A model generated the notes under the pieces. That model was not told the DNA's origin and did no database searches. It was given only the letters and a program-made list of their open reading frames with translations. Shown here piece by piece: positions 2,955 through 58,800 of a stretch of 64,000 nt of DNA. The DNA is from Malacoraja senta (lineage: Eukaryota), in assembly GCA_038087875.1 (NCBI GenBank), contig CM075988.1, positions 27,282,001 to 27,346,000 of the forward strand, given 5' to 3'. Position 1 is the first letter of the stretch. Each line of letters begins with the position of its first letter. Both the position numbers and the translations under genes were made by a program.

Positions 2955-5510
2955 GTGGGAACTATAGGCTGGTTAGTCTGACTTCCGTGGTTGGTAAGAG
3001 TCCATTATAAAGGAAGAGGTTACAGAGTAATATGAAATTCACGATAAAATAGGCCAAAGTCTTTGAAGAAGTAAATAGCAGGACAAAGGAGTCAGTAGAT
3101 GTTGTTTACTTACATTTTCAGAAAGCCTTTGATAAGCACCACACGTTAAGCTGTTAAGGAAGATGAGAGCTCAGGGTATCAAAGGGCAGGTACTAGCATG
3201 GATAGCAGGTTGGCTGGATGGCAGAAGACAAAGAGTGGCATAAAAGGGGGCTTTTTCTGGTTGGCTGCCAGTGACTAGTGAAGTTTCGCAAGGGTCGGTG
3301 CTGGGGCTGCTACTCTTCACGTTGTATATTAGTTATTAACTATTTTCTAAATAGGGAGAGAATCCAGAAATCGGAGGTGTAAAGGGACTTGGGAGTGCTG
3401 GTGCAGGATTCCCAAAAGGTTCATCTGCAAGTCGAATCAGTAGTAAAGAAAGCTAACTCAATGCCAGCATTTATTTCAAGAGGGCTTATATACAAAAACA
3501 AGGATGTAATGTTGAGATGCTATAATGCGTTGGTAAGGTCGCATTTGGAATATTGTGAGCAATTTTGGGCATCATATCTGAGGAAGGATGTGTTGGTTCT
3601 GGAAAGGGTCCAGAGGAGGTTTACAAGAATGATCCCAGGAAGAGTAGGTTAACCAATGATGAGCATTTGTCAGCACTGGGCCTGTACTTGCTGGAGTTTA
3701 GAAGAGCGTGGGGGAACCTCATCCTTCTTCTTTCGTGTGGCGTGCACAGCCAAAAGTTGTTGGACAACTTGTTCTATTTGATCTTCCGTTTGTGCATGTC
3801 GAGTTGATTGCATTAGTCGAAACAAGGCGGACCACGTGAAGGTTGCAAAATTCTTATGGGGTTGGACAGGCTAGATGCAGGAAGATTGTTTCCGATGTTG
3901 GGGAAGTCCAGGACAAGGGGTCACAGCTTAAGGATAAGGGGGAAATCCTTTAAGACCGAGATGAGGAAAAACTTTTTCACAGAGAGTGGTGAATCTCTGG
4001 AACTCTCTGCCACAGAGGGTAGTTGAGGCCAGTTCATTGGCTATATTTAAGAGGGAGTTAGATGTGGCCCTTGTGGCTAAAGGGATCAGGGGGTATGGAG
4101 AGAAGGCAGGTACGGGATACTGAGTTGGATGATCAGCCATGATCATATTGAATGGCGGTGCAGGCTCGAAGGGCCGAATGGCCTACTCCTGCACCTATTT
4201 TCTATGTATCTATGTAATATTCCACCCCAGGGGAACCTCATTGAAACATACAGAATAGTGAAAAGCTTGGATAGAGGATGTTTCCACTAGTGGGAGAGTC
4301 TAGGACCAGAGGTCATAGCTTTAGAATTAAAGGATGTTCTTTCAGGAAGGAGATAGTCATAGAGTGATACAGTGTAGAAACAGGCCCTTCGGCCCAACTT
4401 GCCCACACCAGCCAACATTGTCCCAGCTACACTAGTCCCACTTGCCTGCGCTTGGTCCATATCCCTCCAAACTTGTCATATCCATGTACCTGTCTAACTG
4501 TTTTTTAAACAATGGGATAGTCCCAGCTTCAACTACCTCCTCTAGCAGCTTGTTCCATACACCCACCACCCTTTGTGTGAAAAAGTTATCCCTCGGATTC
4601 CTATTAAATCGTTTTCCCTTCACCTTGAACCTATGTCCTCTGGTCCTCGATTCCCCTACTCTGGGCAAAAGATTGTGCATTTACCCGATCGATTCCTCTC
4701 ATGATCTTATACACCTCTATAAGAACCCCGCTTATCATCCTGCGCTCCATGGATTAGAGACCCAGCCTACTCAACCTCTCCCTATAGATCACACTCTAGT
4801 CCTGGCAACATCCTTGTAAATCTTTTCTGAACCCTTTCAAGCTTGACAATATCTTTCCTGTAAACATGGTGCCCAGAACAAAAAACAATATTCTAAATGC
4901 GGTCTCACCAATGTCTTATACAACTGCAACATGACCTCCCAACTTCTATACTCAATACTCTGACTGATGAAGGCCAAATTGCCAAAGCCTTTTTGACCAC
5001 CTTATCTACCTGCGACTCGACCTTCAAGGAGCCATGCACCTGTACTCCCCGATCCCTTGGTTCTACACCATTACCCAGAGGCCTACCATTAACTGTATAG
5101 GTCCTGCCCTTCTTCAATGTCCCTAAATGTTACACCTCACACTTCTCTGTATTAAATTTCATCAACCATTCTTCCGCCCACCTGGCCAATCGATCCAGAT
5201 CCTGCTGCAATCGTTCACAACTATCTTCACTATCTGCAAAACCACCCACTTTTGTATCATCAGCAAACTTGCTCATCTTTCCCTGTATGTTCTCATCCAA
5301 ATCATTGCTGAGAAATTAATTCTGTCAGAGGGTGGTGAATCTGCGGAATTCTTTGCCACAGAAGGCTGTGGAGGCCGTCAGTGGATATTTTAAAGGCAGA
5401 GATACATAGATTCTTGATTTGTACGGGTGTCAGAGGTTATGGGGAGACAGCAGGAGAATGGGCTTAGGAGGGATAGATCAACCATGATTGAATGGCGGAG
5501 TAGACTTGAT
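2955..5510. mobile_element. Cluster of nested CR1 (HER1-like) LINE fragments on both strands
   Basis: RT/C-terminal motifs ([41 protein letters not shown]); + pieces ~2955-3720, 3849-4215, 4230-4355, 5310-5510; minus piece ~4355-5305. Confidence 0.88.
3723..4228 (-). mobile_element. Ribozyme-headed short retroposon, copy 1, split by a later CR1 3' fragment (3849-4215)
   Basis: Body at 3723-3848, 5' tip aatattccacccc at 4216-4228; TSD ggggaacctcat (3711-3722 / 4230-4241) within a CR1 host. Confidence 0.85.
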
Positions 5511-5700
5511 GGCGGTCTGTTACCAGCGACAGTTCAACCCACAGATATATCACCGATACCACCACAGCAACGAACGAACATGTTGACTCCAACCCAGAGG
5601 TCATGTGTTCAAGGCATGCTCCAGAGACTCTGATTGAATTTTCCATTGAATTTTATTGTTGAGGTTTGTGTTGTGTGGTGTTCAAGTCTTAACTGTAGCT

Positions 5701-5754
5701 GGGGTGGAAGATTGCAACCTTCACGTGGTCCGCCCTGTTTCGACAAATGCAATC
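5701..5754 (+). ncRNA. Minimal HDV-like self-cleaving ribozyme
   Basis: P1 GGGGTGG/CCGCCCT with G1-U wobble, P2 GATTGCA/TGCAATC, P3 ACC/GGT, L3 TTCACGT, one-pair P1.1, P4 reduced to TTTCGA, J4/2 CAAA with the catalytic-C position at 5744. Confidence 0.85.
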
Positions 5755-5835
5755 AACCCGCCGTGCACAATCAAATAAGATCAAATAGAACAAGTTGTCC
5801 TACAACTTTAGGCTGTGCACGCCATACACAAGTAG
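5701..5835 (+). mobile_element. Ribozyme-headed short retroposon, copy 2 (135 bp)
   Basis: 8-bp TSD ctgtagct (5693-5700 / 5836-5843); homologous to the copies at 6881-7012 and 3723-4228; begins with an HDV-like ribozyme fold. Confidence 0.88.
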
Positions 5836-6739
5836 CTGTAGCTATTGGGAAGAAGCTGTTGTTGAACCTGGGGGGTCATTGTTTTACCTTCTTCCTGATG
5901 GTAGGAATGAAATGAGAGCATGGTCAGGCTAATGTCAGTCATTTTCAGTTGAATGAAACAATGAATATTTTAGAGAAGGGCCAGAGAATCCAGACCAATA
6001 TTCATACCTTAAATATCCCTAAGAGATATAATCAAGCCGTTGGCCTTTGTCATTTGTGGTTCAGATTTACATAAATAAATTTCCACCTGACATACCACTG
6101 TGAATACATTCAAATGCTTTTCATTGGGTATAAAGCGATTCGGAATGAACTGACGCCATGAAAGACACTATGTAAATACCTTCTTCCATGTGCTTTGCCC
6201 ATTTGATCTTGCTACAATCCATTAATATATTAGCTTTGTTCAGCAAAGCAATGCATCCATGCTGACATTAGCATGGCAACATTTGAAAGAATTTAAAGTG
6301 TTGCCAGCGAGATTCCATCAGTTTATTCAAATCTATAAGCAAATATTCTCATTAAGTGTTTGAATGGAGTTAGCCTGGGCTGCTAATCCATTCCATCATT
6401 AATATTTAATTCTGCAGTACCATTCATCCATCACCAACAGCAGCACTCATCATCCACCATGACCCGTTTCCTCTTTGCATTGTTTACCGTAACCGATTAT
6501 TTAATAGATTCCATAAATCATTCATGGCAACGTAGCTCCTGACATGCATAACGACCAAGGTGAACTACTGTGTGGACAATCACAAAGTACATCATTAAAA
6601 AACTAGGTAAAGTTATGTTCCCTCAAACCATGCACATGGTTGCATTCTTTTTCAGCTTCACCTGCAGAGGCATGCCTGAGATCACAAGTTTCTCTTCTGA
6701 GTTTGCTTCAGAGGAAAAGTTGTCAGCCACATAATCACA

Positions 6740-7187
6740 AGTTTTAGTTTAAGAGATACAGCGCGGAAACGGGCCCCTCGGATCACCGAGTCTGCGACGG
6801 CCAGCGATCCCTGCACATAACACTTTCTTATCCACACTAGGGACAATTTACATACACCAAGCCAATTTACCTACAAACCTTCTTCTTTCGTGTGGCGTGT
6901 AGACTAATGGTCTTGGACAACTTGTTCTATTTGATCTTCCGTTTGTGGACGTCGAGTTGATTGCATTAGTCGAAACAGGGTGGACCACGTGCAGGTTGCA
7001 ATCTTCCACCCCACCTACAAACCTGTACATCTTTGGAGTGTGGGAGGAACCGAAAATCTCGGAGAAAACCCATGCGGTCACAGGGAGAACGTACAAACTT
7101 CATAGACAGCACCCATAGTCGGGATTGAACCCAGGTCTCCTGCGCTGCAAGCACTGTAAGGCAGCAGCTCTACTGCTGCGCCACCAC
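6740..7187 (-). mobile_element. V-SINE (HE1-like) hosting ribozyme retroposon copy 3
   Basis: Same family as 352-665; head GTGGTGGCGCAGCAGTAGAGCTG...GGTTCAATCCC. Confidence 0.85.
6881..7012 (-). mobile_element. Ribozyme-headed short retroposon, copy 3 (132 bp), inserted in a V-SINE
   Basis: 12-bp TSD acctacaaacct (6869-6880 / 7013-7024); minus strand starts GGGGTGGAAGATTGCAACCTGCACGTGGTCCACCCTGTTTCGACTAATGCAATC and ends CACACGAAAGAAGA. Confidence 0.9.
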
Positions 7188-8496
7188 AATAAAGGCGTAG
7201 ACTATTTTCTAAATGGGGAGAATCCAGAAATCGGAGCTGCAAAGGGACTTGGTGGTGCAGGTGCAGGATTCCCAAAAAGTTAATCTGCAAGTTGAATCGG
7301 TAGTAAAGAAAACAAATGTAATCCTAGCATTTATTTCAAGAGGGCTTGTATACAAAAACAGGGATGTAATGCTGAGGTTCTAAGGCACCGACCGGTCAGG
7401 CTGCATTTGGAGCAATTGTGGGCACCATATGAGGATGTGCTGGCCCTGGAGAGGTTATGGGGAGAAGGCAGAAGAATGGGGTTAGGAGGGATAGATAGAT
7501 CAGCTTTGATTGAATGGTGGAGTAGACTCGGGTCGAATGGCCTAATTCTGCTCCTCACTTATGACAAAGGGACAGGGCTTTGGCTCCTCGTCCGGACCAC
7601 AATCCCTCTAATGCAATCTTGTGCTGCAGGAATACGGGTTGCTGATACGCATTGCACGAATGATCAGTGAATATTTTAAACAACTATCCACTATCTTTCC
7701 TTCACATCTGAAAAAGGGTCACCAGAAATGTTGTCTGTCTATTCCCCACACAGATGCAGTTCCTCCAAAGCTGTTTTGTTCATCCATCCTTCATTTAAAG
7801 TCAACAAGTAAGCACCCTTGATGCTGTTTTACAATATACATTACTTAAACTTAACCAATAGGCCCAGTAATAATCCCGCAAGTCGAGTAGAAATTCAGTT
7901 TTGGTGAAGACTCTGCAGCCGAAACATGAATGGCTTCTCTTTCCACAGCAGTTGCCAGACTAAGTGCTTCTGGCATTTTCTGCTTTGATTTCAGATTTCC
8001 AGCATCCGCAGTGTTTTGATTTGCAGTAATTCTGCTGGTCATTAACTACGCCTGCCTTCCCCATATTCACCAGTCTCCTCTCTGACTCTTTCCTCCACCT
8101 CTCGCACACTACACCATCAACCCCATCACCACTCATTACCTGCACTCGATTACAGGTGCTGTCTAAACAGAGTTTGTACATTCTCCCTTTCTCCAGGTGC
8201 TCTGGTTTCCTCTCACATTCTAAACACACGCAGGTTTGTTTGTTAATTGACGTCTGTAAATTCTCCCCAGTCTGCAGGATAAAACTAGAGTTCAGGTGAC
8301 TGGGCACCACGGCCTTGGTGGACCGAAAGGCCTGTTTTCACACCATGTCCTCAAATTAAACTGACATTCTTACCTCAAAAAAATCTCCTCAGATGAATTA
8401 GTTGAACCAAATACTTTTGCAGATTATTTAGCAGTCTTCTCATTAATGTTTGCTCCTGAATATCAATATTAGCACCGGTGGTGAACCTTCCTCAGT

Positions 8497-14970: not shown

Positions 14971-15226
14971 ATCAATCTGGAATTTAAATACCAGTAAGAA
15001 CAATGATAAGCACTGAAGTATTAGAATTGGAAACGACCATCTAGTTTGTTTATGTCCTTCATGGAAGGAAATCTGCCTTGCTGTCCCAATTTGGCCTTGA
15101 GTAACTCAACCAACCAACATGATAATTCTTAATGAAAATTAGAGAGGCAATAAATGCCACTATTCCAGCAACATCCAGTCTTTGATTGGTATTACAAAAA
15201 ACTCTCCCCATTTCATTTTCCATTAC

Positions 15227-15358
15227 CTCCAGCATTGTGATTTTGTTCACAATATCTGTAATTGCTGTATTAAGCAAAGTTCCCAAAGCTTTGCAATATA
15301 TGTGAACTGGAAGTACATCTTGCCAAACTTTGCCCAGCCGCTTCAACTGATGGATCAC
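15227..15358 (-). CDS. ZW10: ZW10 exon 14 (132 nt)
   Basis: [44 protein letters not shown]; acceptor ggacag, donor GAG|gtaatg. Confidence 0.97.
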
Positions 15359-15412
15359 CTGTCCGAACAAAAAACAAATTCTGTTAATGGTTAGAATAGA
15401 ACAATCCCAATC

Positions 15413-23030: not shown

Positions 23031-24192
23031 ATTAGGATGGACTCTGAGCAGAACATTTATACCTTAAACCAGCAATGCTTTAACCAACAGCAGTACATAA
23101 TAACAATTCAAGACACAGCTAAACATCAGACAGTGCCCTCCATAATGTTTGGGACAAAGACCCATCATTTATTTATTTGCGTCTGTACACAATTTGAGAT
23201 TTGTAATAGAAAAAAAAATCACATGTGGTTAAAGTGCATATTGTCAGATTTTATTACAAGCCCTTTTTATACATATTGGTTTCACCAAGTAGAAATTACA
23301 GCTGTGTTTCTACATTGCTCCCCCATTTCAGGGCACCATAATGTTTGGGACATGTGGCTTAACAGGTAATTGCTCAAGTGTGTTTAATTGCCTCCTTAAG
23401 GCAGGTATAAGAGAGTTCTCAGCACAAAGTTTTTCCTCCAGTCTTTCCATCAACTTTGAAAACTTTTATTGCTGTTTATCAACATGACCAAATTTGTGCC
23501 AATGAGAGTCAAAGAAGCCATTATGAGACTGAGAAACAAGAATAAAACTGTTGGAGACATCAGCCAAACCGGAGACATCAGCCAAACCTTAGGCTTGCCA
23601 AAATCAAGTGTTTGGAACATCATTAAGAAGAAAGAGAGCACTGGTGAACTTACTAATCGCAAAAGGCCTGGCAGGACAAGGAAGACCTCCACAGCTGATG
23701 ACAGAAGAATTCACTCTATAATAAAGAAAAATCCCCAAACACCTGTCCGACAGATCAGAAACACTCTTCAGGTGTGGATTTGTCAATGACTACTGCCCGC
23801 AGAAGACTTCATGAACAGAAATACAGAGGCTACACTGCAAGATGCAAACCACTGGTTAGCCACAAAAATAGGATGACAAGGTTACAGTTTGCCAAGTACT
23901 TAAAAGAGCAACCACAGTTCTGGAAAAAGGTCTAGTGGACAGATGAGACGAAGATTAACATATCAGAGTGATGGCAAGAGCAAAGTATGGAGGAGAGAAG
24001 GAACTACCCAAGATCCAAAGCATATCATCTCATCTGTGAAACACTGTGGTGAGGATGTTATGGCCTGGGCATGTATGGCTGCTGAAGCTACTGGCTCACT
24101 TATCTTCATCTCCTATCTGTTCAAGTTCAAACAAATGTCACAAAAGTCATTGGACGGTGGTTCATTCTACAGCAAGACAATGATCCCAAACA

Positions 24193-29634: not shown

Positions 29635-32600
29635 TATAACCATATAACCATTACAGCACGGAAACAGGCCATCTCGGCCCTTCAAGTCCGTGCCGAATAT
29701 TATTATTATTTTTTTATAATAAATACTTCCCCCTAGTCCCATCTACCTGCACTCAGACCATAACCCTCCATTCCTTTCCCGTCCATATACCCATCCAATC
29801 TATTTTTAAAGGATAAAATCGAACCAGCCTCCACCACTTCCACTGGAAGCTCATTCCACACAGCTACCACTCTCTGAGTAAAGAAGTTCCCCCTAATGTT
29901 ACCCCTAAACTTCTTAATTCTCAAGTCATGTCCCCTTGTTTGAATCTTCCCTACTCTCAATGGAAAAAGCTTATCCACGTCAACTCTGTCTAACCCGCTC
30001 ATAATTTTAAAGACCTCTATCAAGTCCCCTCTTAACCTTCTGCGCTCCAAAGAATAAAGACCTAACTTGTTCAACCTTTCTCTGTAATTTAGTTGCTGAA
30101 ACCCAGGCAACATTCTAGTAAATCTCCTCTGTACTCTCTCTATTTTGTTGACATCCTTCCTATAATTAGGCGACCAAAATTGTACTCCATACTCCAGAAT
30201 TGGTCTCACCAATGCCTTGCACAATTTTAACATTACATCCCAACTTCTATATTCAATGCTCTGATTTATAAAGGCCAGCACACCAAAAGCTTTCTTTACC
30301 ACCCTATCTACATGAGATTCCACCTTCAGGAAACTATGCACAGTTATTCCTAGATCCCTCTGTTCAACTGCATTCCTCAATTCTCTACCATTTACCATGT
30401 ATGTCCTATTTTGATTTGTCCGGCTGAGATGTAGTACCTCACATTTATCAGCATTAAACTCCATCTGCCATCTTTCAGCCCACTCTTCCAAATGGCCTAA
30501 ATCTCTCTGTAGACTTTGAAAATCTACTTCATTATCCACCACACCACCTATCTTAGCATCATCTGCATACTTACTAATCCAATTTTCCACACCATCATCC
30601 AGATCATTGATGTACATGACGAACAACAGTGGACCCAACACAGACCCCTGAGGCACCCCACTCGTCACCGGCCTCCAACCTGACAAACAGCCATCCACCA
30701 TTACTCTCTGCCATCTCCCATTCAGCCACTGTTGAATCTTGCTACTCCACCATTAATACCCAACAATTTAATCTTCTTAACCAACCTTCCATGAGGAACT
30801 TTGTCAAAGGCCTTACTGAAGTCCATATAGACAACATCCACTGGTTTACCCTCATCAATTTCCCTAGTAACCTCTTCGAACAATTCTAGAAGATTAGTCA
30901 AACATGACCTTCCAGGCACAAATCCATGTTGACTGTTCCTAATCAGACCCTGCTTATCCAGATGCTTATATATATTATCTCTAAGTATCCTTTCCATTAA
31001 TTTGCCCACAACTGACATCAAACTAACAGGTCTATAATTGCTAGGTTTACTCTTAGAACCCTTTTTAAACAACGGAACAACATGCGCAGTACGCCAATCC
31101 TCCGGCACTATTCCCGTTTCTAATGACATTTGAAATATTTCTGTCATAGCCCCTGCTATTTCTACACTAACTTCCCTCAATGTCCTCGGGAATATCCTGT
31201 CAGGACCTGGAGACTTATCCGTTTTCATATTTTTCAAAAGTGTCCGCACCTATTCATTGAATCTCATAGTTTCCATTGCTACTCTGCTTGTTTCCCTTAC
31301 CTCACATAATTCCATATCCTTCTCCCTGGTGAATACCGAAGAAAAGAAATTGTTCAATATCTCCCCCATCTCTTTTGGCTCTGCAGATAGCTGTCCACTC
31401 TGACTCTCTAATGGATCAATTGTATTCCTTGTTATCCTTTTGCTATTAATATAGCTGTAGAAACCCTTTGGATTTACTTTCACCTTACTTGCTAAAGCAA
31501 CATCATATCTTCTTTTAGCTTTTCTAATTTCTTTCTTAATTTTTTTTTAACATTCTTTATACTCCTCAAGCACCTCATTTACTCCATGCTGCCTATAATT
31601 ATTGTAGATCTCTCTCTTTTTCCGAACCAAGTGTCCAATTTCCCTTGAAAACCATGGCTCTTTCCAATTTTTACTATTTCCTTTCAACCGAACAGGGACA
31701 TAAAGATTCTGTACTCTTAAAATTTCACCTTTAAATGTCCTCCATTTCTCTTCTACATCCTTCCCATACAACAACATGTCCCAATTCACTCCTTTTAAAT
31801 CCTTTCGCATCTCCTCAAAGTTAGCCTTTCTCCAATCAAAAATCTCAACCCTAGGTCCAGTTCTGACCCTCTCCATAATTATATTGAAACTAATGGCATT
31901 GTGATCACTGGACCCGAAGTGCTCCCCAACGCTTACCTCCGCCACCTGCCCTGTCTCATTTCCTAACAGGAGGTCCAGCACTGCCCCTTCTCTAGTAGGT
32001 ACCTCTATGTATTGTTGCAAAAAACTATCCTGCACACATTTTACAAACTCCAAACCATCCAGCCCTTTTACAGAATGTGTTTCGCAGTCTATGTGGAAAA
32101 TTGAAATCTCCCACAATCACTACTTTGTGCTTACTACTAATATCTGCTATCTCCTTACATATTTGCTCTTCCAATTCTCGCTCCCCATTTGGCGGTCTAT
32201 AATACACCCCTATAAGTGTTGCTACACCTTTCCCATTTCTCAGCTCCACCCAAATAGCCTCCCTAGACGAGCCCTCTAATCTATCCTGCCAAAGCACTGC
32301 TGTAATATCTTCCTTGACAAGCAATGCAACACCCCCACCTCTTGCCCCTCCAATTCTATCACCCCTGAAGCAACAAAATCCTGTAATATTTAGTTTCCAA
32401 TCACAGCCCTCCTGCAACCATGTTTCACTGATCGCCACATCATACTTCCAGGTGTCAATCCAAGCTCATCCACCTTTCTTACAATGCTCCTAGCATTAAA
32501 ATACACATTTATGAAACCCACCACCGCTTATTCTCTGTTTATTATCTTTTTCTTCTTTCTCCCCTACATTTTGGGTCCGAGTGCTTCCCTTCTCTGCCTC

Positions 32601-39600: not shown

Positions 39601-40964
39601 ACTCCTATACTGAAATCCTCGTTATGAAGGCAATCATTCCATTAGCTTTCTTCATTGCCTGCTGTACCTGCACACCAACTTTCTGGTGTACAAGGACACC
39701 CAGGTCTCGCTGTATCTCCCCCTTACCGAACCTAACCCCATTGAGATAATAATCTGCCCCCTTGTTTTTGCCACCAAAGTGGATAACCTCACATTTATCT
39801 ATATAATACTGCATCTGCCACACATCTGCCCACTCACTCAACCTGTCCAGGTCACCCTGCAACCTCCTAACATCCTCTTCACAGTTCACACTGCCACCCA
39901 GCTTTGTGTCATCCGCAAACTTGCTAATGTTGCTCCTAATTCCCTCTTCCAAATCATTAATATATATGGTAAACATTTGCGGCCCCAACACCGAGCCTTG
40001 CGGCACTCCACTCGCCACTGCCTCCCATTCTGAAAAGGACCCGTTCACTCCTACTCTTTGCTTCCTGTCTGCCAACCAATTATCTATCCACGTCACTCCC
40101 TACCTCCAATACAATGTGCTCTAATTTTAGTCACCAGTCTCCCGTGCGGGACCTTATCAAAGGATTTCTGAAACTCTAGATGCACTGCATCCACTGGCTC
40201 CCCTTCATCCATTTTACTTGTCACATCCTCAAAAAATTCCAGAAGATTAGTCAAGCATGATTTTCCTTTCATAAATCCATGCTGACTTGGACTAATCCTT
40301 TTAATGCTATCCAAATGCACCATTACTACCTCTTTAATAATTGACTCCAGCATCTTTCCCACCACCGAAGTCAGGCCAACTGGTCTGTAATTCCCCGTTT
40401 TCTCTCTCGCTCCTTTCTTGAAGAATAGGATAACATTAGCTATCCTCCAATCCACAGGAACTGATCCTGAATCTATTGAACAATGGAAAATGATCACCAA
40501 TGCGTCCACTATTTCTAGAGCCACCTCTCAGAGGACCCTGGGATGCAATCCATCAGGCCCCGGGGATTTATCATCCTTCAGTCCCATTAGCCTACCCAAT
40601 ATTATTTCTCGCCTAATGATGATTTCTTTCAGTTCCTCGACCCACAACCACATTTTTGTTTGGAAGTGGAATGAAATAATAGAAATTGCATTCATTGCAA
40701 CGCGTAAAAATAGTTGAGATACTGCATTGTAATTTTGCTGCAGGTCATTGTGGTATATATTATGTCTTGATTGGTGAATATGTTTAGTTTGTGACTTTAT
40801 TTGAAGCAGAAATAATATGTGAATGCTTCATTGAGCATAATTCCGACTGGTAACTACGCACTTCGTCCGAGCACATTATCGCACGCCGTAAACTGTCATT
40901 TGGCAACCTAAAAAGCTACCTAGGTTGCCCGGCTAGCAACAGAGAAAAAAAGTTGAGAGCCCTG
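36633..40964 (+). mobile_element. hAT5-like non-autonomous DNA transposon, copy A, with SINE/Penelope cargo and a later CR1 insertion (38988-40640)
   Basis: Termini cagggctcgaaatta / gagagccctg; 5-bp flanks ttagg / ttggg (one mismatch). Confidence 0.8.
38988..40640 (-). mobile_element. CR1 LINE RT fragment inserted in hAT5-like copy A
   Basis: RT motifs; the uninterrupted site gaataaccatatttttg is seen in copy B (reverse complement at ~48435-48456). Confidence 0.92.
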
Positions 40965-55892: not shown

Positions 55893-58800
55893 AGAAACAT
55901 AGAAAATAGGTGCAGGAGTAGGCCATTCGGCCCTTCGAGCCTGCACCCCCATTCAATATGATCATGGCTGATCATCCAACTCAGTATCCTGCACCTGCCT
56001 TCTCTCCATACCCCCTGATCCCTTTAGCCACATCTAACTCCCTCTTAAATATAGCCAATGAACTGGCCTCAACTACCTTCTGTGGCAGAGAATTCCAGAG
56101 ATCCACCACTCTGTGTGAAAAATGTTTTTCTCATCTCGGTCCTAAAAGATTTCCCCCTTATCCTTAAACTGTGACCCCTTGTTCTGGACTTCCCCAACAT
56201 CGGGAACAATCTTCCTGCATCTAGCCTGTCCAACCCCTTAAGAATTTTGTAAGTTTCTATAAGATCCCCCCTCAATCTTCTAAATTCTAGCGAGTACAAC
56301 TGCAGTAGAACCTCCCTGCTCCTATACTCAAATCCTTTTGCTATGAATGCTAACATACCATTTGCTTTCTTCACTGCCTGCTGCACCTGCATGCCTACTT
56401 TCAATGACTGGTGTACAATGACACCCAAGTCTCGTTGCTTCTCCCCTTTTCCTAATCGGCCACCATTCAGATAATAGTCTACTTTCCTGTTTTTGCCACC
56501 AAAGTGGATAACCTCACATTTATCCACATTATACTGCATCTGCCATGCATTTGCCCACTCACCCAGCCTATCCAAGTCACCTTGCAGCCTCCTCGCATCC
56601 TCCTCACAGCTAACACTGTTCCCCAGCTTCGTGTTATCCGCAAACTTGGAGATGTTGCATTCAATTCCCTCGTCCAAATCATTAATATATATTGTAAATA
56701 GCTGGGGTCCCAGCACTGAGCCTTGCGGTACCCCACTAGTCACTGCCTGCCATTCTGAGAAGGACATGTTTACTCCTACTCTTTGCTTCCTGTCTGCCAG
56801 CCAGTGCTCTATCCACATCAATACTGAACCCCCAATACCGTGTGCTTTAAGTTTGTATACTAATCTCTTATGTGGGACCTTGTCGAAAGCCTTCTGAAAG
56901 TCCAGATATAACACATCCACTGGTTCTCCCTTATCCACTCTACCAGTTACATCCTCGAAAAATTCTATAAGATTCGTCAGACATGATTTACCTTTCGTAA
57001 ATCCATGCTGACTTTGTCCAATGATTTCACCACTTTCCAAATGTGCTGCTATCCCATTTTTAATAACTGACTCTAGCAGTTTCCCCACTACCGATGTTAG
57101 ACTAACTGGTCTGTAATTCCCCGTTTTCTCTCTCCCTCCATTTTTAAAAAGTGGGGTTATATTAGCTACCCTCCAATCCTCAGGAACTACTCCAGAATCT
57201 AAAGAGTTTTGAAAAATTATCACTAATGCATCCACTGTTTCTGGGGCTACTTCCTTAAGTACTCTGGCATTCAGCCTATCTGGCCCTGGGGATTTATCGG
57301 CCTTTAATCCATTCAATTTACCTAACACTACTTCCCGGCTAACCTGGATTTCACTCAGTTCCTCCAGCTCATTTGACCCCCGATCCTTGCTATTTCCGGC
57401 AGATTATTTATGTCTTCCTTAGTAAAGACAAAACCAAAGTAGTTATTCAATTGGTCTGCCATGTCCTTGTTCCCCATGATCAATTCACCTGTTTCTGACT
57501 GCAAGGAACCTACATTTGTTTTAACTAATCTTTTTCCCTTCACATATCTATCAAACTTTTGCAGTCAGTTTTTATGTTCCAGTTTTCTTTCATAATCTAT
57601 TTTCCCTTTACAAATTAAGCCCTTTGTCCTCCTCTGCTGGACTCTGAATTTCTCCCAGTCCTCTGGTAGGCTGCTTTTTCTGGCTAATTTGTATGCTTCA
57701 TCTTTTGTTTTGATACTATCCCTGATTTCCCTTGTTATCCACGGATGCACTACCTTCCTCGATTTATTCTTTTGCCAAACTAGGATGAACAATTGTTGTA
57801 GTTCATCCATGCAGTCTTTAAATGCCTTCCATTGCACATCCACCATCAACCCTTTAAGAATCAATTGTCAGTCTATCTTGGCCAACTCACGTCTCATACA
57901 CTCAAAGTTACCTTCCTTTAAGTCCAGAACCCTTATTTCTGAATTAATTATGTCACTCTCCACCCTAATGAAGAACTCAACCATATTATGGTCACTCTTG
58001 CCCAAGGGCCACGCACAACAAGACTGCTAACTAACCCTTCCTCATTACTCAATACCCAGTCTAGAATAGCCTGCTCTCACGTTGGTTCAGAAAACTATCC
58101 CACATACATTCCAAGAAATCCTCTTCCTCAGCACCCCTGCCAATTTGATTCACCCAATCTATATGTAGATTGAAGTCACCCATTATAACTGTTTTACCTT
58201 TGTTGCACGCATTTCTAATTTCCTGTTTGATGCCATCCCCAACTCCACTACTACTGTTAGGTGGCCTGTACACAACTCCCACTAGCATTTTCTGCCCCTT
58301 AGTGTTTCGCAGCTCTACCCATATCGATTCCACATCCTCCAAACTAATGTCCTTCCTTTCTATTGCGTTAATCTCCTCTCTAACCAGCAACGCTACCCCA
58401 CCTCCTTTTCCTTTCTGTCTATCCCTCCTGAATATTGAATATCCCTGGATGTTCAGCTCCCAGCCTTGGTCACCCTGGAGCCATGTCTCCGTGATCCCAA
58501 CTAAATCATAGTCATTAATAGCTATCTGCACATTCAACTCATCCACCTTATTACGAATGTTCCTTGCATTGAGACACAAAGTCTTCAGGCTTGTTTTCAC
58601 AACACTCTTACCCCTTATACAATTATGTTGAAAAGTGGCCCTTTTTGATTTCTGCCCTGGATTTGTCTGCCTGCCACTTTTACTTTTCACCTTGCTACCT
58701 ATTGCTTCTACCCTCATTTTATACCCGTCTCTCTTCTCACACATTTAAGAAACCCACCACCTCTTATTCTCTGTTTATTATTTTGTTCTTCTTTCCCCCC

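What the first reader, a model, noticed from the sequence alone, without database searches (positions are those of the whole stretch)
5701..5835. A ~135-nt SINE-like retroposon headed by a minimal HDV-like ribozyme instead of a Pol III promoter
Seen: three homologous copies (5701-5835 +, 6881-7012 -, 3723-4228 - split), each with its own TSD (8, 12, 12 bp). They have no ORF, no tRNA/5S/7SL head, and an (AAG)n-like tail. The first 54 nt form a full nested double pseudoknot: P1 GGGGUGG/CCRCCCU with G1-U wobble, P2 GAUUGCA/UGCAAUC, P3 ACC/GGU, L3 UKCACGU, one-pair P1.1 (C5722-G5737), P4 shrunk to UUUCGA, and J4/2 C-W-A-A. One P1 position alternates between U-G and U-A across copies, keeping the pairing. 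Established: HDV-like ribozymes process the 5' ends of R2, RTE and L1Tc retrotransposons, and P4-less minimal forms exist. Inference: this is a tiny non-autonomous retroposon that frees its 5' end from read-through host transcripts by self-cleavage and borrows LINE machinery. I do not know of a description in cartilaginous fishes but cannot exclude one.
Basis: partly seen in the sequence, partly recalled or inferred. Interest (0 to 1): 0.9.

Follow-up and report, generated by a model that had tools for sequence, protein, structure and literature searches.

The report
Ribozyme-headed short retroposon family
A 135-base mobile element, present in thousands of near-identical copies, begins with a miniature self-cutting RNA of the hepatitis-delta type; the same kind of RNA heads a compact jumping gene in this genome that probably copies the element.

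Summary
Window 5701-5835 (+), 6880-7012 (-) and a split third copy belong to a young family. An exact 22-mer from the head occurs 4,645 times in the 1.94-Gb genome. Of 82 full copies, 75 start at the same GGGGTGG. Duplications are mostly 11-12 bp, and the tail is (AAG)n.

The first 54 nt fit a P4-less HDV-like double pseudoknot. A descriptor for that fold found 0 matches in 9.6 Mb of random sequence. There are no Pol III boxes.

Within the family there is no covariation.

Decisive support came from outside the window:
- A compact APE+RT LINE (about 3.1 kb, open frames up to 1,014 aa, RTE-like) and a second short retroposon end in the same ACACGAAAG(AAG)n terminus.
- Both begin with an HDV-like ribozyme.
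- Across the three lineages, 11 of 18 pairs show compensatory changes, while L3 and J1/2 match exactly between SINE-A and the LINE, and J4/2 matches in one SINE-A variant.
- The LINE head scores 60-61 bits on Rfam's mammalian CPEB3 ribozyme model (threshold 35). The second retroposon scores 37.

Self-cleavage itself is untested.

This is a new variant of a known kind, and it links the CPEB3 ribozyme family to retrotransposons.

The parts
5701..5835 (+). Copy A of the 135-nt retroposon (here called SINE-A, subfamily 1)
   Evidence: Genome copies are 96-100% identical. Flanked by 8-11 bp duplications.
5701..5754 (+). Predicted P4-less HDV-like ribozyme. Cleavage is predicted 5' of G5701.
   Evidence: Descriptor hit. 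Weak end-to-end Rfam alignments to RF02682 and RF00094. Top hit of a covariance model built from the LINE and the second retroposon only. Covariation.
5701..5707 (+). P1 5' strand. Pairs with 5730-5736, with a G5701-U5736 wobble at the cleavage site.
5710..5716 (+). P2 5' strand. Pairs with 5748-5754.
   Evidence: All cells paired; 5 of 7 pairs show double changes across lineages.
5717..5729 (+). P3 (5717-5719 with 5727-5729) enclosing L3 (5720-5726). C5722 pairs with G5737 to form P1.1.
   Evidence: L3 is letter-for-letter the same as in the LINE head.
5738..5747 (+). A 6-nt linker in place of P4 (5738-5743), then J4/2 (5744-5747) with the candidate catalytic C5744.
   Evidence: C44 is kept in 77 of 80 copies. 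The Rfam alignments place it on the catalytic C of their consensus.
5792..5808 (+). Conserved 3' hairpin: a 7-bp stem with a 3-nt loop.
   Evidence: fold. In one search, only the loop base nt 101 varies at subfamily level between nt 78 and nt 124.
5820..5835 (+). 3' terminus and degenerate (AAG)n tail
   Evidence: Subfamily 2 ends in ACACGAAAG(AAG)n, as do the LINE and the second retroposon.
5693..5700 (.). Target-site duplication of copy A, left copy. The right copy is at 5836-5843.
6880..7012 (-). Copy B (subfamily 2). Ribozyme part is 6959-7012.
6869..6879 (.). Target-site duplication of copy B. The other copy is at 7013-7023.
3723..3850 (-). Copy C, from about nt 12 to the tail
4220..4228 (-). 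Copy C, nt 1-9. Separated from the rest by an inserted repeat of about 365 bp.
3711..3722 (.). Target-site duplication of copy C. The other copy is at 4230-4241.

Best explanation
SINE-A is a non-autonomous, LINE-dependent retroposon. It is not a Pol III SINE in the strict sense.

Proposed mechanism, with each step marked:
1. Its RNA is made as part of longer transcripts that read into a copy (inferred).
2. The first 54 nt fold into a P4-less ribozyme of the HDV/CPEB3 type, which cuts just 5' of G1 and frees an RNA that starts at the element's first base. The fold and its conservation are shown. Catalysis is inferred.
3. A compact RTE-like APE+RT LINE of the same genome recognises the 3' terminus ACACGAAAG(AAG)n, probably together with the conserved hairpin (inferred).
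4. The LINE copies the RNA into TY|AG sites by target-primed reverse transcription with an 11-12 bp stagger. The insertion signature is shown. The enzyme is inferred.

The LINE itself begins with a full-size ribozyme of the same lineage. The head was probably acquired from such a LINE and then lost P4.
For: Family and ends
- Head 22-mer: 4,645 places. Tail-side 22-mer: 4,795 places. Reversed controls: 0.
- 75 of 82 full copies start GGGGTGG. A duplication (up to one mismatch) abuts nt 1 in 72 of 82.
- An exact duplication of 6 bp or more is present in 56 of 80 copies; 41 of those 56 are 11-12 bp. Target letters: T at -2 in 31 of 56, C/T at -1 in 45, A at +1 in 42, G at +2 in 31.

Fold
- The descriptor hits only the two intact heads in the window, and 0 times in 9.6 Mb of random sequence.
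- The minimum-energy fold of nt 1-54 is P1+P3.
- The only two of 4,227 Rfam families with E up to 10 are both HDV ribozymes, aligned end to end with P1 starting at 5701.

Constraint
- Among 80 copies, variants shared by 8% or more inside nt 1-54 lie only at nt 8 (J1/2), nt 32 (U-G to U-A) and nt 45 (second base of J4/2).
- By contrast, 11 positions vary in nt 55-77.
- Contigs from runs of four differently coded organisms show the same picture.

Relatives
- A pattern demanding non-SINE sequence upstream of the terminal 14-mer gave 277 places against 12 in the control.
- These include a LINE open-frame end and a retroposon of about 200 nt.
- LINE 5' ends in L104, L105, L102 and L103 carry a complete HDV-like ribozyme 10-29 nt before the first ATG.
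- The LINE fragments match Exo_endo_phos and RVT_1. Open frames reach 1,014 aa.

Covariation across 3 SINE-A, 2 second-retroposon and 3 LINE heads
- 97.8% of cells are paired.
- 11 of 18 pairs show double changes.
- The covariation score is 0.661 against at most 0.117 for slid partners; 0 of 500 shuffles reach it.

Other
- L3 and J1/2 are identical in SINE-A and the LINE.
- A covariance model built without SINE-A ranks 5702-5754 first in the window (18 bits, rough E 0.04).
- P4-less HDV-like ribozymes cleave in vitro (passages read in bioRxiv 10.1101/2023.06.13.544163).
Against: - No cleavage assay or RNA 5'-end data exist. The laid runs are contigs whose RNA nature is only a guess, and contigs running across the 5' junction into unlike flanks are present.
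- SINE-A reaches only 14 bits on RF02682 and RF00094, against gathering scores of 44 and 50. It did not appear for the CPEB3 model at E up to 10.
- P1.1 has one Watson-Crick pair plus a U-U. The same is reported for CPEB3 (PMC4836649, passage read).
- J1/2 is only 2 nt. One study of a larger HDV-like ribozyme found little activity with spacers of 0-1 nt (PMC4908430, passage read).
- No covariation within the family.
- Sequence shared with the LINE at the 3' end is short, about 9 nt plus the repeat.
- The LINE whose tail matches exactly (family a) was seen only as 5'-truncated copies. Its 5' end was not seen. The ribozyme was seen on a related LINE family, about 60% amino-acid identity over a 207-aa query, whose one 3' end seen carries one extra A in the terminus.
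- A precise 5' end would also follow from a fixed transcription start.
Confidence: 0.78

Rival explanations
1. The head is a relic. It descends from a LINE ribozyme but no longer cleaves after losing P4. It is kept because the same 54 nt serve another role, such as an internal promoter at the DNA level (as Pr77 does in L1Tc) or a binding site for the LINE protein. The 5' end would then be set by transcription initiation.
For: - SINE-A falls far below the Rfam thresholds and has no P4.
- In L1Tc and NARTc the same 77 nt act as both promoter and ribozyme (PMC3383444, abstract read).
- The R2 protein binds part of the 5' ribozyme structure (PMC6765202, passage read).
- Junction-spanning contigs exist.
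Against: - All 17 helix pairs, the P1.1 pair, the G-U at the cleavage site, the L3 letters and the J4/2 cytosine are kept in the propagating lineages. A promoter alone would not require that.
- P4-less HDV-like ribozymes are active in vitro (bioRxiv 10.1101/2023.06.13.544163, passages read).
Confidence: 0.13
2. It is an ordinary Pol III SINE whose head is derived from an unrecognised small RNA, and the HDV-like drawing is a chance resemblance.
For: - A precise 5' end and the absence of TTTT inside the element also fit Pol III transcripts.
- Earlier follow-ups in other genomes rejected similar ribozyme claims for SINE heads.
Against: - A and B boxes match no better than in random 135-mers.
- No tRNA, 5S, 7SL or snRNA match.
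- The descriptor gave 0 hits in 9.6 Mb of random sequence.
- Compensatory changes occur in 11 of 18 pairs against two other element heads, and those heads pass Rfam's CPEB3 threshold.
Confidence: 0.03
3. SINE-A is not mobilised by the RTE-like LINE found here. The shared terminus is convergent, and another LINE recognises the (AAG)n repeat.
For: - Only about 9 nt plus the repeat are shared.
- Pattern hunts for a LINE sharing longer head or tail stretches with SINE-A found only SINE variants.
- Subfamily 1 has a slightly different terminus, ACRCAAG.
Against: - The 14-mer occurs 277 times against 12 in the control, in recurrent contexts that belong to the LINE and to a second ribozyme-headed retroposon.
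- Head homology points to the same LINE lineage.
- Near-intact long open frames exist, up to 1,014 aa.
Confidence: 0.1

Closest known systems
R2 SIDEs and R2/R1 hybrid SIDEs of Drosophila (Eickbush & Eickbush 2012, PMC3414825; abstract and passages read)
   Same: Short ORF-less elements made of a 5' HDV-like ribozyme plus a LINE 3' end. They are co-transcribed with host sequence and mobilised in trans. In the hybrids the ribozyme and the tail come from different LINEs.
   Different: - The SIDEs insert only in 28S rDNA, number tens of copies, and carry full-size ribozymes shown to cleave.
- SINE-A is dispersed, has at least 4,600 copies, is 135 nt long and has a P4-less 54-nt head.
- SINE-A shares only the ribozyme core and about 9 nt of the terminus with the LINE.
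NARTc/L1Tc and other Pr77-bearing elements of trypanosomatids (PMC3383444 and PMC4035085, abstracts read)
   Same: Dispersed non-autonomous elements that carry the HDV-like ribozyme of their LINE at nt 1.
   Different: - Protist elements of the ingi/L1Tc clade.
- The head is 77 nt and doubles as a promoter.
- NARTc is a plain truncated L1Tc.
Bipartite non-autonomous RTE derivatives (Kojima 2020, PMC7245038; passages read) and RTE 5' ribozymes (Ruminski et al. 2011; known here only through citing passages in PMC3774820 and PMC6765202)
   Same: RTE-type LINEs often spawn derivatives of the form 5' UTR plus 3' UTR. RTE elements are reported to cleave at their 5' junction with HDV-like ribozymes.
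   Different: - The hagfish paper does not mention ribozymes in the passages read.
- Here the derivative has diverged in every helix and dropped P4.
- The RTE clade assignment of the LINE rests on architecture, not on a tree.
Mammalian CPEB3 ribozyme (Rfam RF00622)
   Same: - The LINE head scores 61.3 and 59.7 bits and the second retroposon 37.4 bits, against a threshold of 35.
- SINE-A shares the 7-nt L3, the one-pair P1.1 with a U-U, and a 4-nt J4/2. These CPEB3 features are taken from PMC4836649 (passages read).
   Different: - CPEB3 is a single intronic copy reported only in mammals (PMC8233481, passage read).
- The elements here are multi-copy heads of mobile elements in a genome whose ZW10 exon is about 74% identical to human.
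- SINE-A itself does not reach the model's threshold.
Minimal (P4-less) HDV-like ribozymes and theta ribozymes (bioRxiv 10.1101/2023.06.13.544163, passages read; Riccitelli et al. 2014 not seen)
   Same: A double pseudoknot of about 50 nt without P4, with a catalytic C at the first J4/2 position.
   Different: Those come from metagenomes and gut phages, often next to tRNAs. This one heads a retroposon in an animal genome.

Membership tests
HDV-like self-cleaving ribozymes | Nested double pseudoknot: P1 crossing P2, with P3 and P1.1 inside | tested here: met
   Descriptor scan. 97.7% of cells paired in 80 copies. 97.8% paired with 11 of 18 covarying pairs across three lineages.
HDV-like self-cleaving ribozymes | Cleavage site at the first base of P1, with a G-U closing pair | tested here: inconclusive
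   G1-U36 is present, and the element's first base is G1 in 75 of 82 copies. Cleavage itself was not observed.
HDV-like self-cleaving ribozymes | Catalytic cytosine at the first position of J4/2, plus the L3 U and G that form the metal-binding wobble | tested here: met
   C44 is kept in 77 of 80 copies. U20, C22 and G25 are invariant or nearly so. The Rfam alignments put them on the consensus positions.
HDV-like self-cleaving ribozymes | Mg2+-dependent self-scission abolished by changing the catalytic C to U | not testable with these tools
   Needs a bench assay.
HDV-like self-cleaving ribozymes | Rfam gathering score of any HDV-like family, for SINE-A itself | tested here: not met
   14.4 bits on RF02682 (threshold 44) and 14.0 bits on RF00094 (threshold 50). 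The models expect P4 and cannot score P2.
CPEB3 ribozyme family (RF00622) | Rfam gathering score of 35 bits | tested here: met
   Met by the LINE head (61.3 and 59.7 bits) and by one of two second-retroposon heads (37.4 bits; the other scored 27.1). Not met by SINE-A, which gave no hit at E up to 10.
SINE in the strict sense (Pol III-transcribed) | Head derived from tRNA, 5S or 7SL, with internal A and B boxes | tested here: not met
LINE-dependent non-autonomous retroposon | Dispersed copies, target-site duplications, no ORF, and a 3' end shared with a LINE | tested here: met
   Terminus shared with LINE 3' ends.
SIDE / bipartite LINE derivative | Both ends derived from the autonomous element by internal deletion | tested here: inconclusive
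   The head is homologous in structure and core letters. No LINE sharing long exact head or tail stretches was found.
RTE clade (for the partner LINE) | About 3.2 kb, a single APE+RT ORF of about 1,000 aa, and very short UTRs (definition recalled, not from a call) | tested here: inconclusive
   One copy spans about 3.2 kb including about 130 nt of extra repeat units. Open frames of 1,014 and 1,008 aa. Exo_endo_phos and RVT_1 matches. Relatives of 900-1,000 aa sit on contigs of 3.0-3.4 kb. No phylogeny was made.

The most novel reading that the evidence does not exclude
The CPEB3 ribozyme family is not a mammalian invention. It is the 5'-processing ribozyme of a widespread RTE-like LINE lineage and of the small retroposons that parasitise it. 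The single intronic CPEB3 copy of mammals would then be a domesticated retrotransposon head. SINE-A shows the same ribozyme stripped to a 54-nt P4-less core that still propagates in thousands of copies.
Probability: 0.4. Interest if true: 0.85.

Novelty: new variant of a known kind. Interest (0 to 1): 0.76.

Why it matters
- It would be a naturally minimised (54 nt, no P4) HDV-like ribozyme that has been kept through thousands of recent retropositions in an animal genome. So far, minimal forms are described from metagenomes and phages.
- It gives a worked trio of LINE, larger retroposon and minimal retroposon, with rich covariation for structure-function work.
- The LINE head passes Rfam's CPEB3 model by a wide margin. 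[quoted passage not shown] These elements could supply outgroups and make the origin of that ribozyme testable.

Tried and rejected
- Covariation inside the family: none.

- Hunts for a LINE sharing long exact stretches with SINE-A, using patterns with 'not-SINE' letters:
  - 100 hits; the 30 fetched were all SINE copies, 3 of them 5'-truncated;
  - 87 hits, SINE indel variants or unique truncations;
  - 9 rearranged SINEs;
  - 23 SINE indel variants.

- Sampling of 154 kb for other (AAG)n-tailed repeats found 2 unrelated sites. Tail-only BLAST hits: none.

- Expression and RNA ends:
  - 24 runs, labelled with 8 different organism codes, hold part of the stretch.
  - The 4 runs laid are contigs whose RNA nature is a guess, so no start, end or cleavage can be read from them. 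No verdict.

- The upstream 3 kb of one LINE tail (L098) held no LINE. That copy is 5'-truncated.

- Pfam on the LINE's C-terminal 340 aa gave no family.

- The own-model hit at window 23288-23322 needs a 44-position deletion and is taken as spurious.

- Earlier-findings look-ups by sequence and by place returned nothing.

- The Webb & Luptak review, Webb et al. 2009 and Ruminski et al. 2011 are not held. What they report is known here only through citing papers. Repbase and Dfam could not be consulted.

- Searches behind the statement that no description is in print.

Full report
**What is in the window.**
- Copy A is 5701-5835 (+).
- Copy B is 6880-7012 (-).
- Copy C is split by a repeat of about 365 bp: nt 1-9 at 4220-4228, the rest at 3723 to about 3850.
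- Each copy has its own duplication: 8-11 bp, 11 bp and 12 bp.
- Rfam at gathering thresholds finds nothing in the 64 kb. ARAGORN finds no tRNA in 3600-7200. The best A-box and B-box matches have 3 mismatches each, as in random 135-mers of the window.

**The family.** The window lies in a 1.94-Gb assembly.
- Copy A as query gave 1,550 first-look candidates; the 40 scored were full-length and 96-100% identical.
- Copy B gave 1,420 candidates.
- An exact 22-mer of the head occurs 4,645 times and a 22-mer of the 3' half 4,795 times. The reversed controls gave 0. Most copies are therefore full length.
- In the fetched loci I found 94 copies. Twelve partial ones were set aside, leaving 82 full copies. 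Two more were later dropped as segmental duplicates (L028, L033). Three loci that overlap others were left out (L001, L031, L087).
- 75 of 82 begin GGGGTGG. A duplication (up to one mismatch) abuts nt 1 in 72 of 82.
- An exact duplication of 6 bp or more is present in 56 of 80; 41 of those 56 are 11-12 bp. The target reads TY|AG. This signature and the (AAG)n tail are those of target-primed reverse transcription by a LINE.

**The fold.**
- Nucleotides 1-54 give a 7-bp P1 with G1-U36, a 2-nt J1/2, a 7-bp P2, a 3-bp P3, a 7-nt L3, one P1.1 pair (C22-G37), a 6-nt linker instead of P4, and J4/2 C-N-A-A.
- I wrote a descriptor with these HDV-like features and generous ranges. It hit only 5701 and 7012 in the window, and nothing in 9.6 Mb of first-order Markov sequence. 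The helices alone hit 60 times. I wrote the descriptor after seeing the sequence, although its letters follow published core positions (PMC4836649 and PMC4908430, passages read).
- The minimum-energy fold of nt 1-54 is P1+P3.
- In a permissive Rfam scan of 65 nt, the only two of 4,227 families with E up to 10 were HDV-F-prausnitzii (14.4 bits) and HDV_ribozyme (14.0 bits). Both aligned end to end with P1 starting at 5701, and both were far below threshold.

**Variation within the family.**
- Among 80 copies, 97.7% of cells pair, but no pair has a double change. The family is too young for that.
- Variants shared by 8% or more of copies are more telling, because they mark lineages that went on copying. 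Inside nt 1-54 they occur only at nt 8 (J1/2), nt 32 (pairing kept) and nt 45 (second base of J4/2). Eleven positions vary in nt 55-77. Only the hairpin loop base nt 101 varies in nt 78-124.
- Contigs from runs of four differently coded organisms show the same pattern. Those runs cannot show RNA ends.

**Finding the relatives.**
- Four pattern hunts for a LINE sharing long exact stretches with the element failed.
- A fifth hunt demanded non-SINE letters upstream of the terminal 14-mer of subfamily 2. It gave 277 places against 12 in the control, in a few recurrent contexts.
- One context is the end of a LINE open frame, followed after about 20 nt by the same terminus (L095, L096).
- The other is a second short retroposon of about 200 nt with its own duplications (L092, L093, L097). 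Its 5' end folds as another HDV-like ribozyme with different helices.
- The LINE's C-terminal peptide gave 1,089 candidates, and an RT-side 207-aa piece gave 4,527.
- Copies of the same family (85-97% identical) have open frames of at most 493 aa among those scored. A related family (about 60% identical) has open frames of 1,014, 1,008 and 940 aa.
- Fragments of the 1,014-aa copy match Exo_endo_phos and RVT_1. That copy spans about 3.2 kb including about 130 nt of extra 5' repeat units.
- Database relatives are proteins of 900-1,000 aa on contigs of 3.0-3.4 kb from many animal groups. By architecture this is RTE-like. I made no tree.

**The LINE head.**
- Five 5' ends of the related family were read (L100, L102, L103, L104, L105). 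Their upstream flanks all differ.
- Three start at the first G of P1, one lacks 1 nt and one lacks 2 nt (see also, 4 exact places).
- The ribozyme has a 7-bp P1 with a G-U closing pair, J1/2 AA, a 7-bp P2, a 3-bp P3, the same L3 as SINE-A, an 8-bp P4 and J4/2 CGAA. It ends 10-29 nt before the first ATG.
- Rfam scores it as CPEB3_ribozyme at 61.3 and 59.7 bits (threshold 35, E about 1e-15). The second retroposon head scores 37.4 and 27.1 bits.

**Covariation.**
- I aligned 3 SINE-A, 2 second-retroposon and 3 LINE heads.
- 97.8% of cells pair. 11 of 18 pairs have double changes: 4 in P1, 5 in P2, 2 in P3.
- The covariation score is 0.661, against at most 0.117 when partners are slid, and 0 of 500 shuffles reach it.
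- Only three lineages are involved, so the count of independent events is small.
- The unpaired letters J1/2, L3 and the G-U after P1 are identical in SINE-A and the LINE. J4/2 is identical in the SINE-A variant that has G at nt 45.
- A covariance model built from the LINE and second-retroposon heads only, with P2 and P3 as pairs, ranks 5702-5754 first in the window (18.0 bits, rough E 0.04) and copy B third.

**Reading.** SINE-A is a LINE-dependent retroposon headed by a P4-less ribozyme of the HDV/CPEB3 type.
- Shown: the fold, its conservation, the coincidence of the element's first base with the predicted cleavage site, the insertion signature, and the presence of a LINE lineage with the same terminus and a homologous head.
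- Inferred: catalysis, read-through transcription, and which LINE does the copying.
- The 5' end of the LINE family whose tail matches exactly was not seen.

**Comparison with what is known.**
- Ribozyme-headed non-autonomous elements are described: R2 SIDEs and R2/R1 hybrids (PMC3414825) and NARTc (PMC3383444).
- Bipartite RTE derivatives are common (PMC7245038), and RTE elements are reported to cleave at their 5' junction (cited in PMC3774820).
- A review states that some SINEs use HDV-like ribozymes (PMC6765202).
- What differs here is the minimal P4-less form, the copy number, and the host. The host is a vertebrate-type genome whose ZW10 exon is about 74% identical to human over 54 aa.
[quoted passage not shown] My searches found no paper linking CPEB3 to RTE-type heads. 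The key older papers and Repbase/Dfam could not be read.

Noticed in passing
L093:539-735 (also L092, L097; a 5'-truncated copy in L094 and L091): A second short retroposon family of about 200 nt, with duplications of about 10-13 bp and the same ACACGAAAG(AAG)n terminus. Its head is an HDV-like ribozyme with a 6-bp P1, a two-pair P1.1 and a short P4. One copy passes Rfam's CPEB3 threshold (37.4 bits). Its 5' ends vary by 0-2 nt.
   Followed up: partly
L100 (C8:937500-938050, minus strand) and L102: Some full-length LINE copies carry 3-5 extra tandem units of about 26 nt at the 5' end. Each unit is a partial ribozyme (end of the P1 5' strand, P2 5' strand, P3 and L3). The repeat boundary falls on a GATC that occurs in both P1 strands. 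The cause and any effect on cleavage are unknown.
   Followed up: no
L104:12-95, L105:45-128: The LINE 5' ribozyme matches the 'mammalian' CPEB3 ribozyme model at about 60 bits, in a genome that does not look mammalian. Protein relatives of this LINE occur in amphioxus, echinoderms, insects, an annelid and a teleost (names given by sources).
   Followed up: partly
window 15203-15364 (-): An exon encoding part of the ZW10 C-terminal helical domain (Pfam PF22766), about 74% identical to human ZW10 residues 627-680. The three SINE-A copies lie 8-11 kb on its downstream side. Copies B and C are in the gene's orientation and copy A is opposite.
   Followed up: partly
window 5686-5833, run X1: One low-depth contig (3.2) joins 5686 to 5833 with 5 other letters between. 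It looks like the site without the insertion, either an allele, a relative, or a paralogous copy of the surrounding repeat.
   Followed up: no
window about 3851-4219; also many insertion sites in L045, L048, L055: Another abundant repeat of about 365 bp is inserted into copy C. Members of this or a similar family are frequent targets of SINE-A insertions.
   Followed up: no
window 56072-57403 (-), 58064-58744 (-), 29736-32465 (-), 39608-40527 (-): Several LINE fragments with RVT_1 and Exo_endo_phos matches. One has a 444-aa open stretch. L099 also holds a 466-aa open RT stretch of a different, CR1/L2-looking LINE. The genome therefore carries several young LINE lineages.
   Followed up: no
genome places listed (for example C1:302236389, C6:2875818): A few SINE-A copies are followed directly after nt 54 by the reverse complement of a SINE-A head. 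They may be head-to-head nested insertions or rearrangements at the ribozyme boundary.
   Followed up: no
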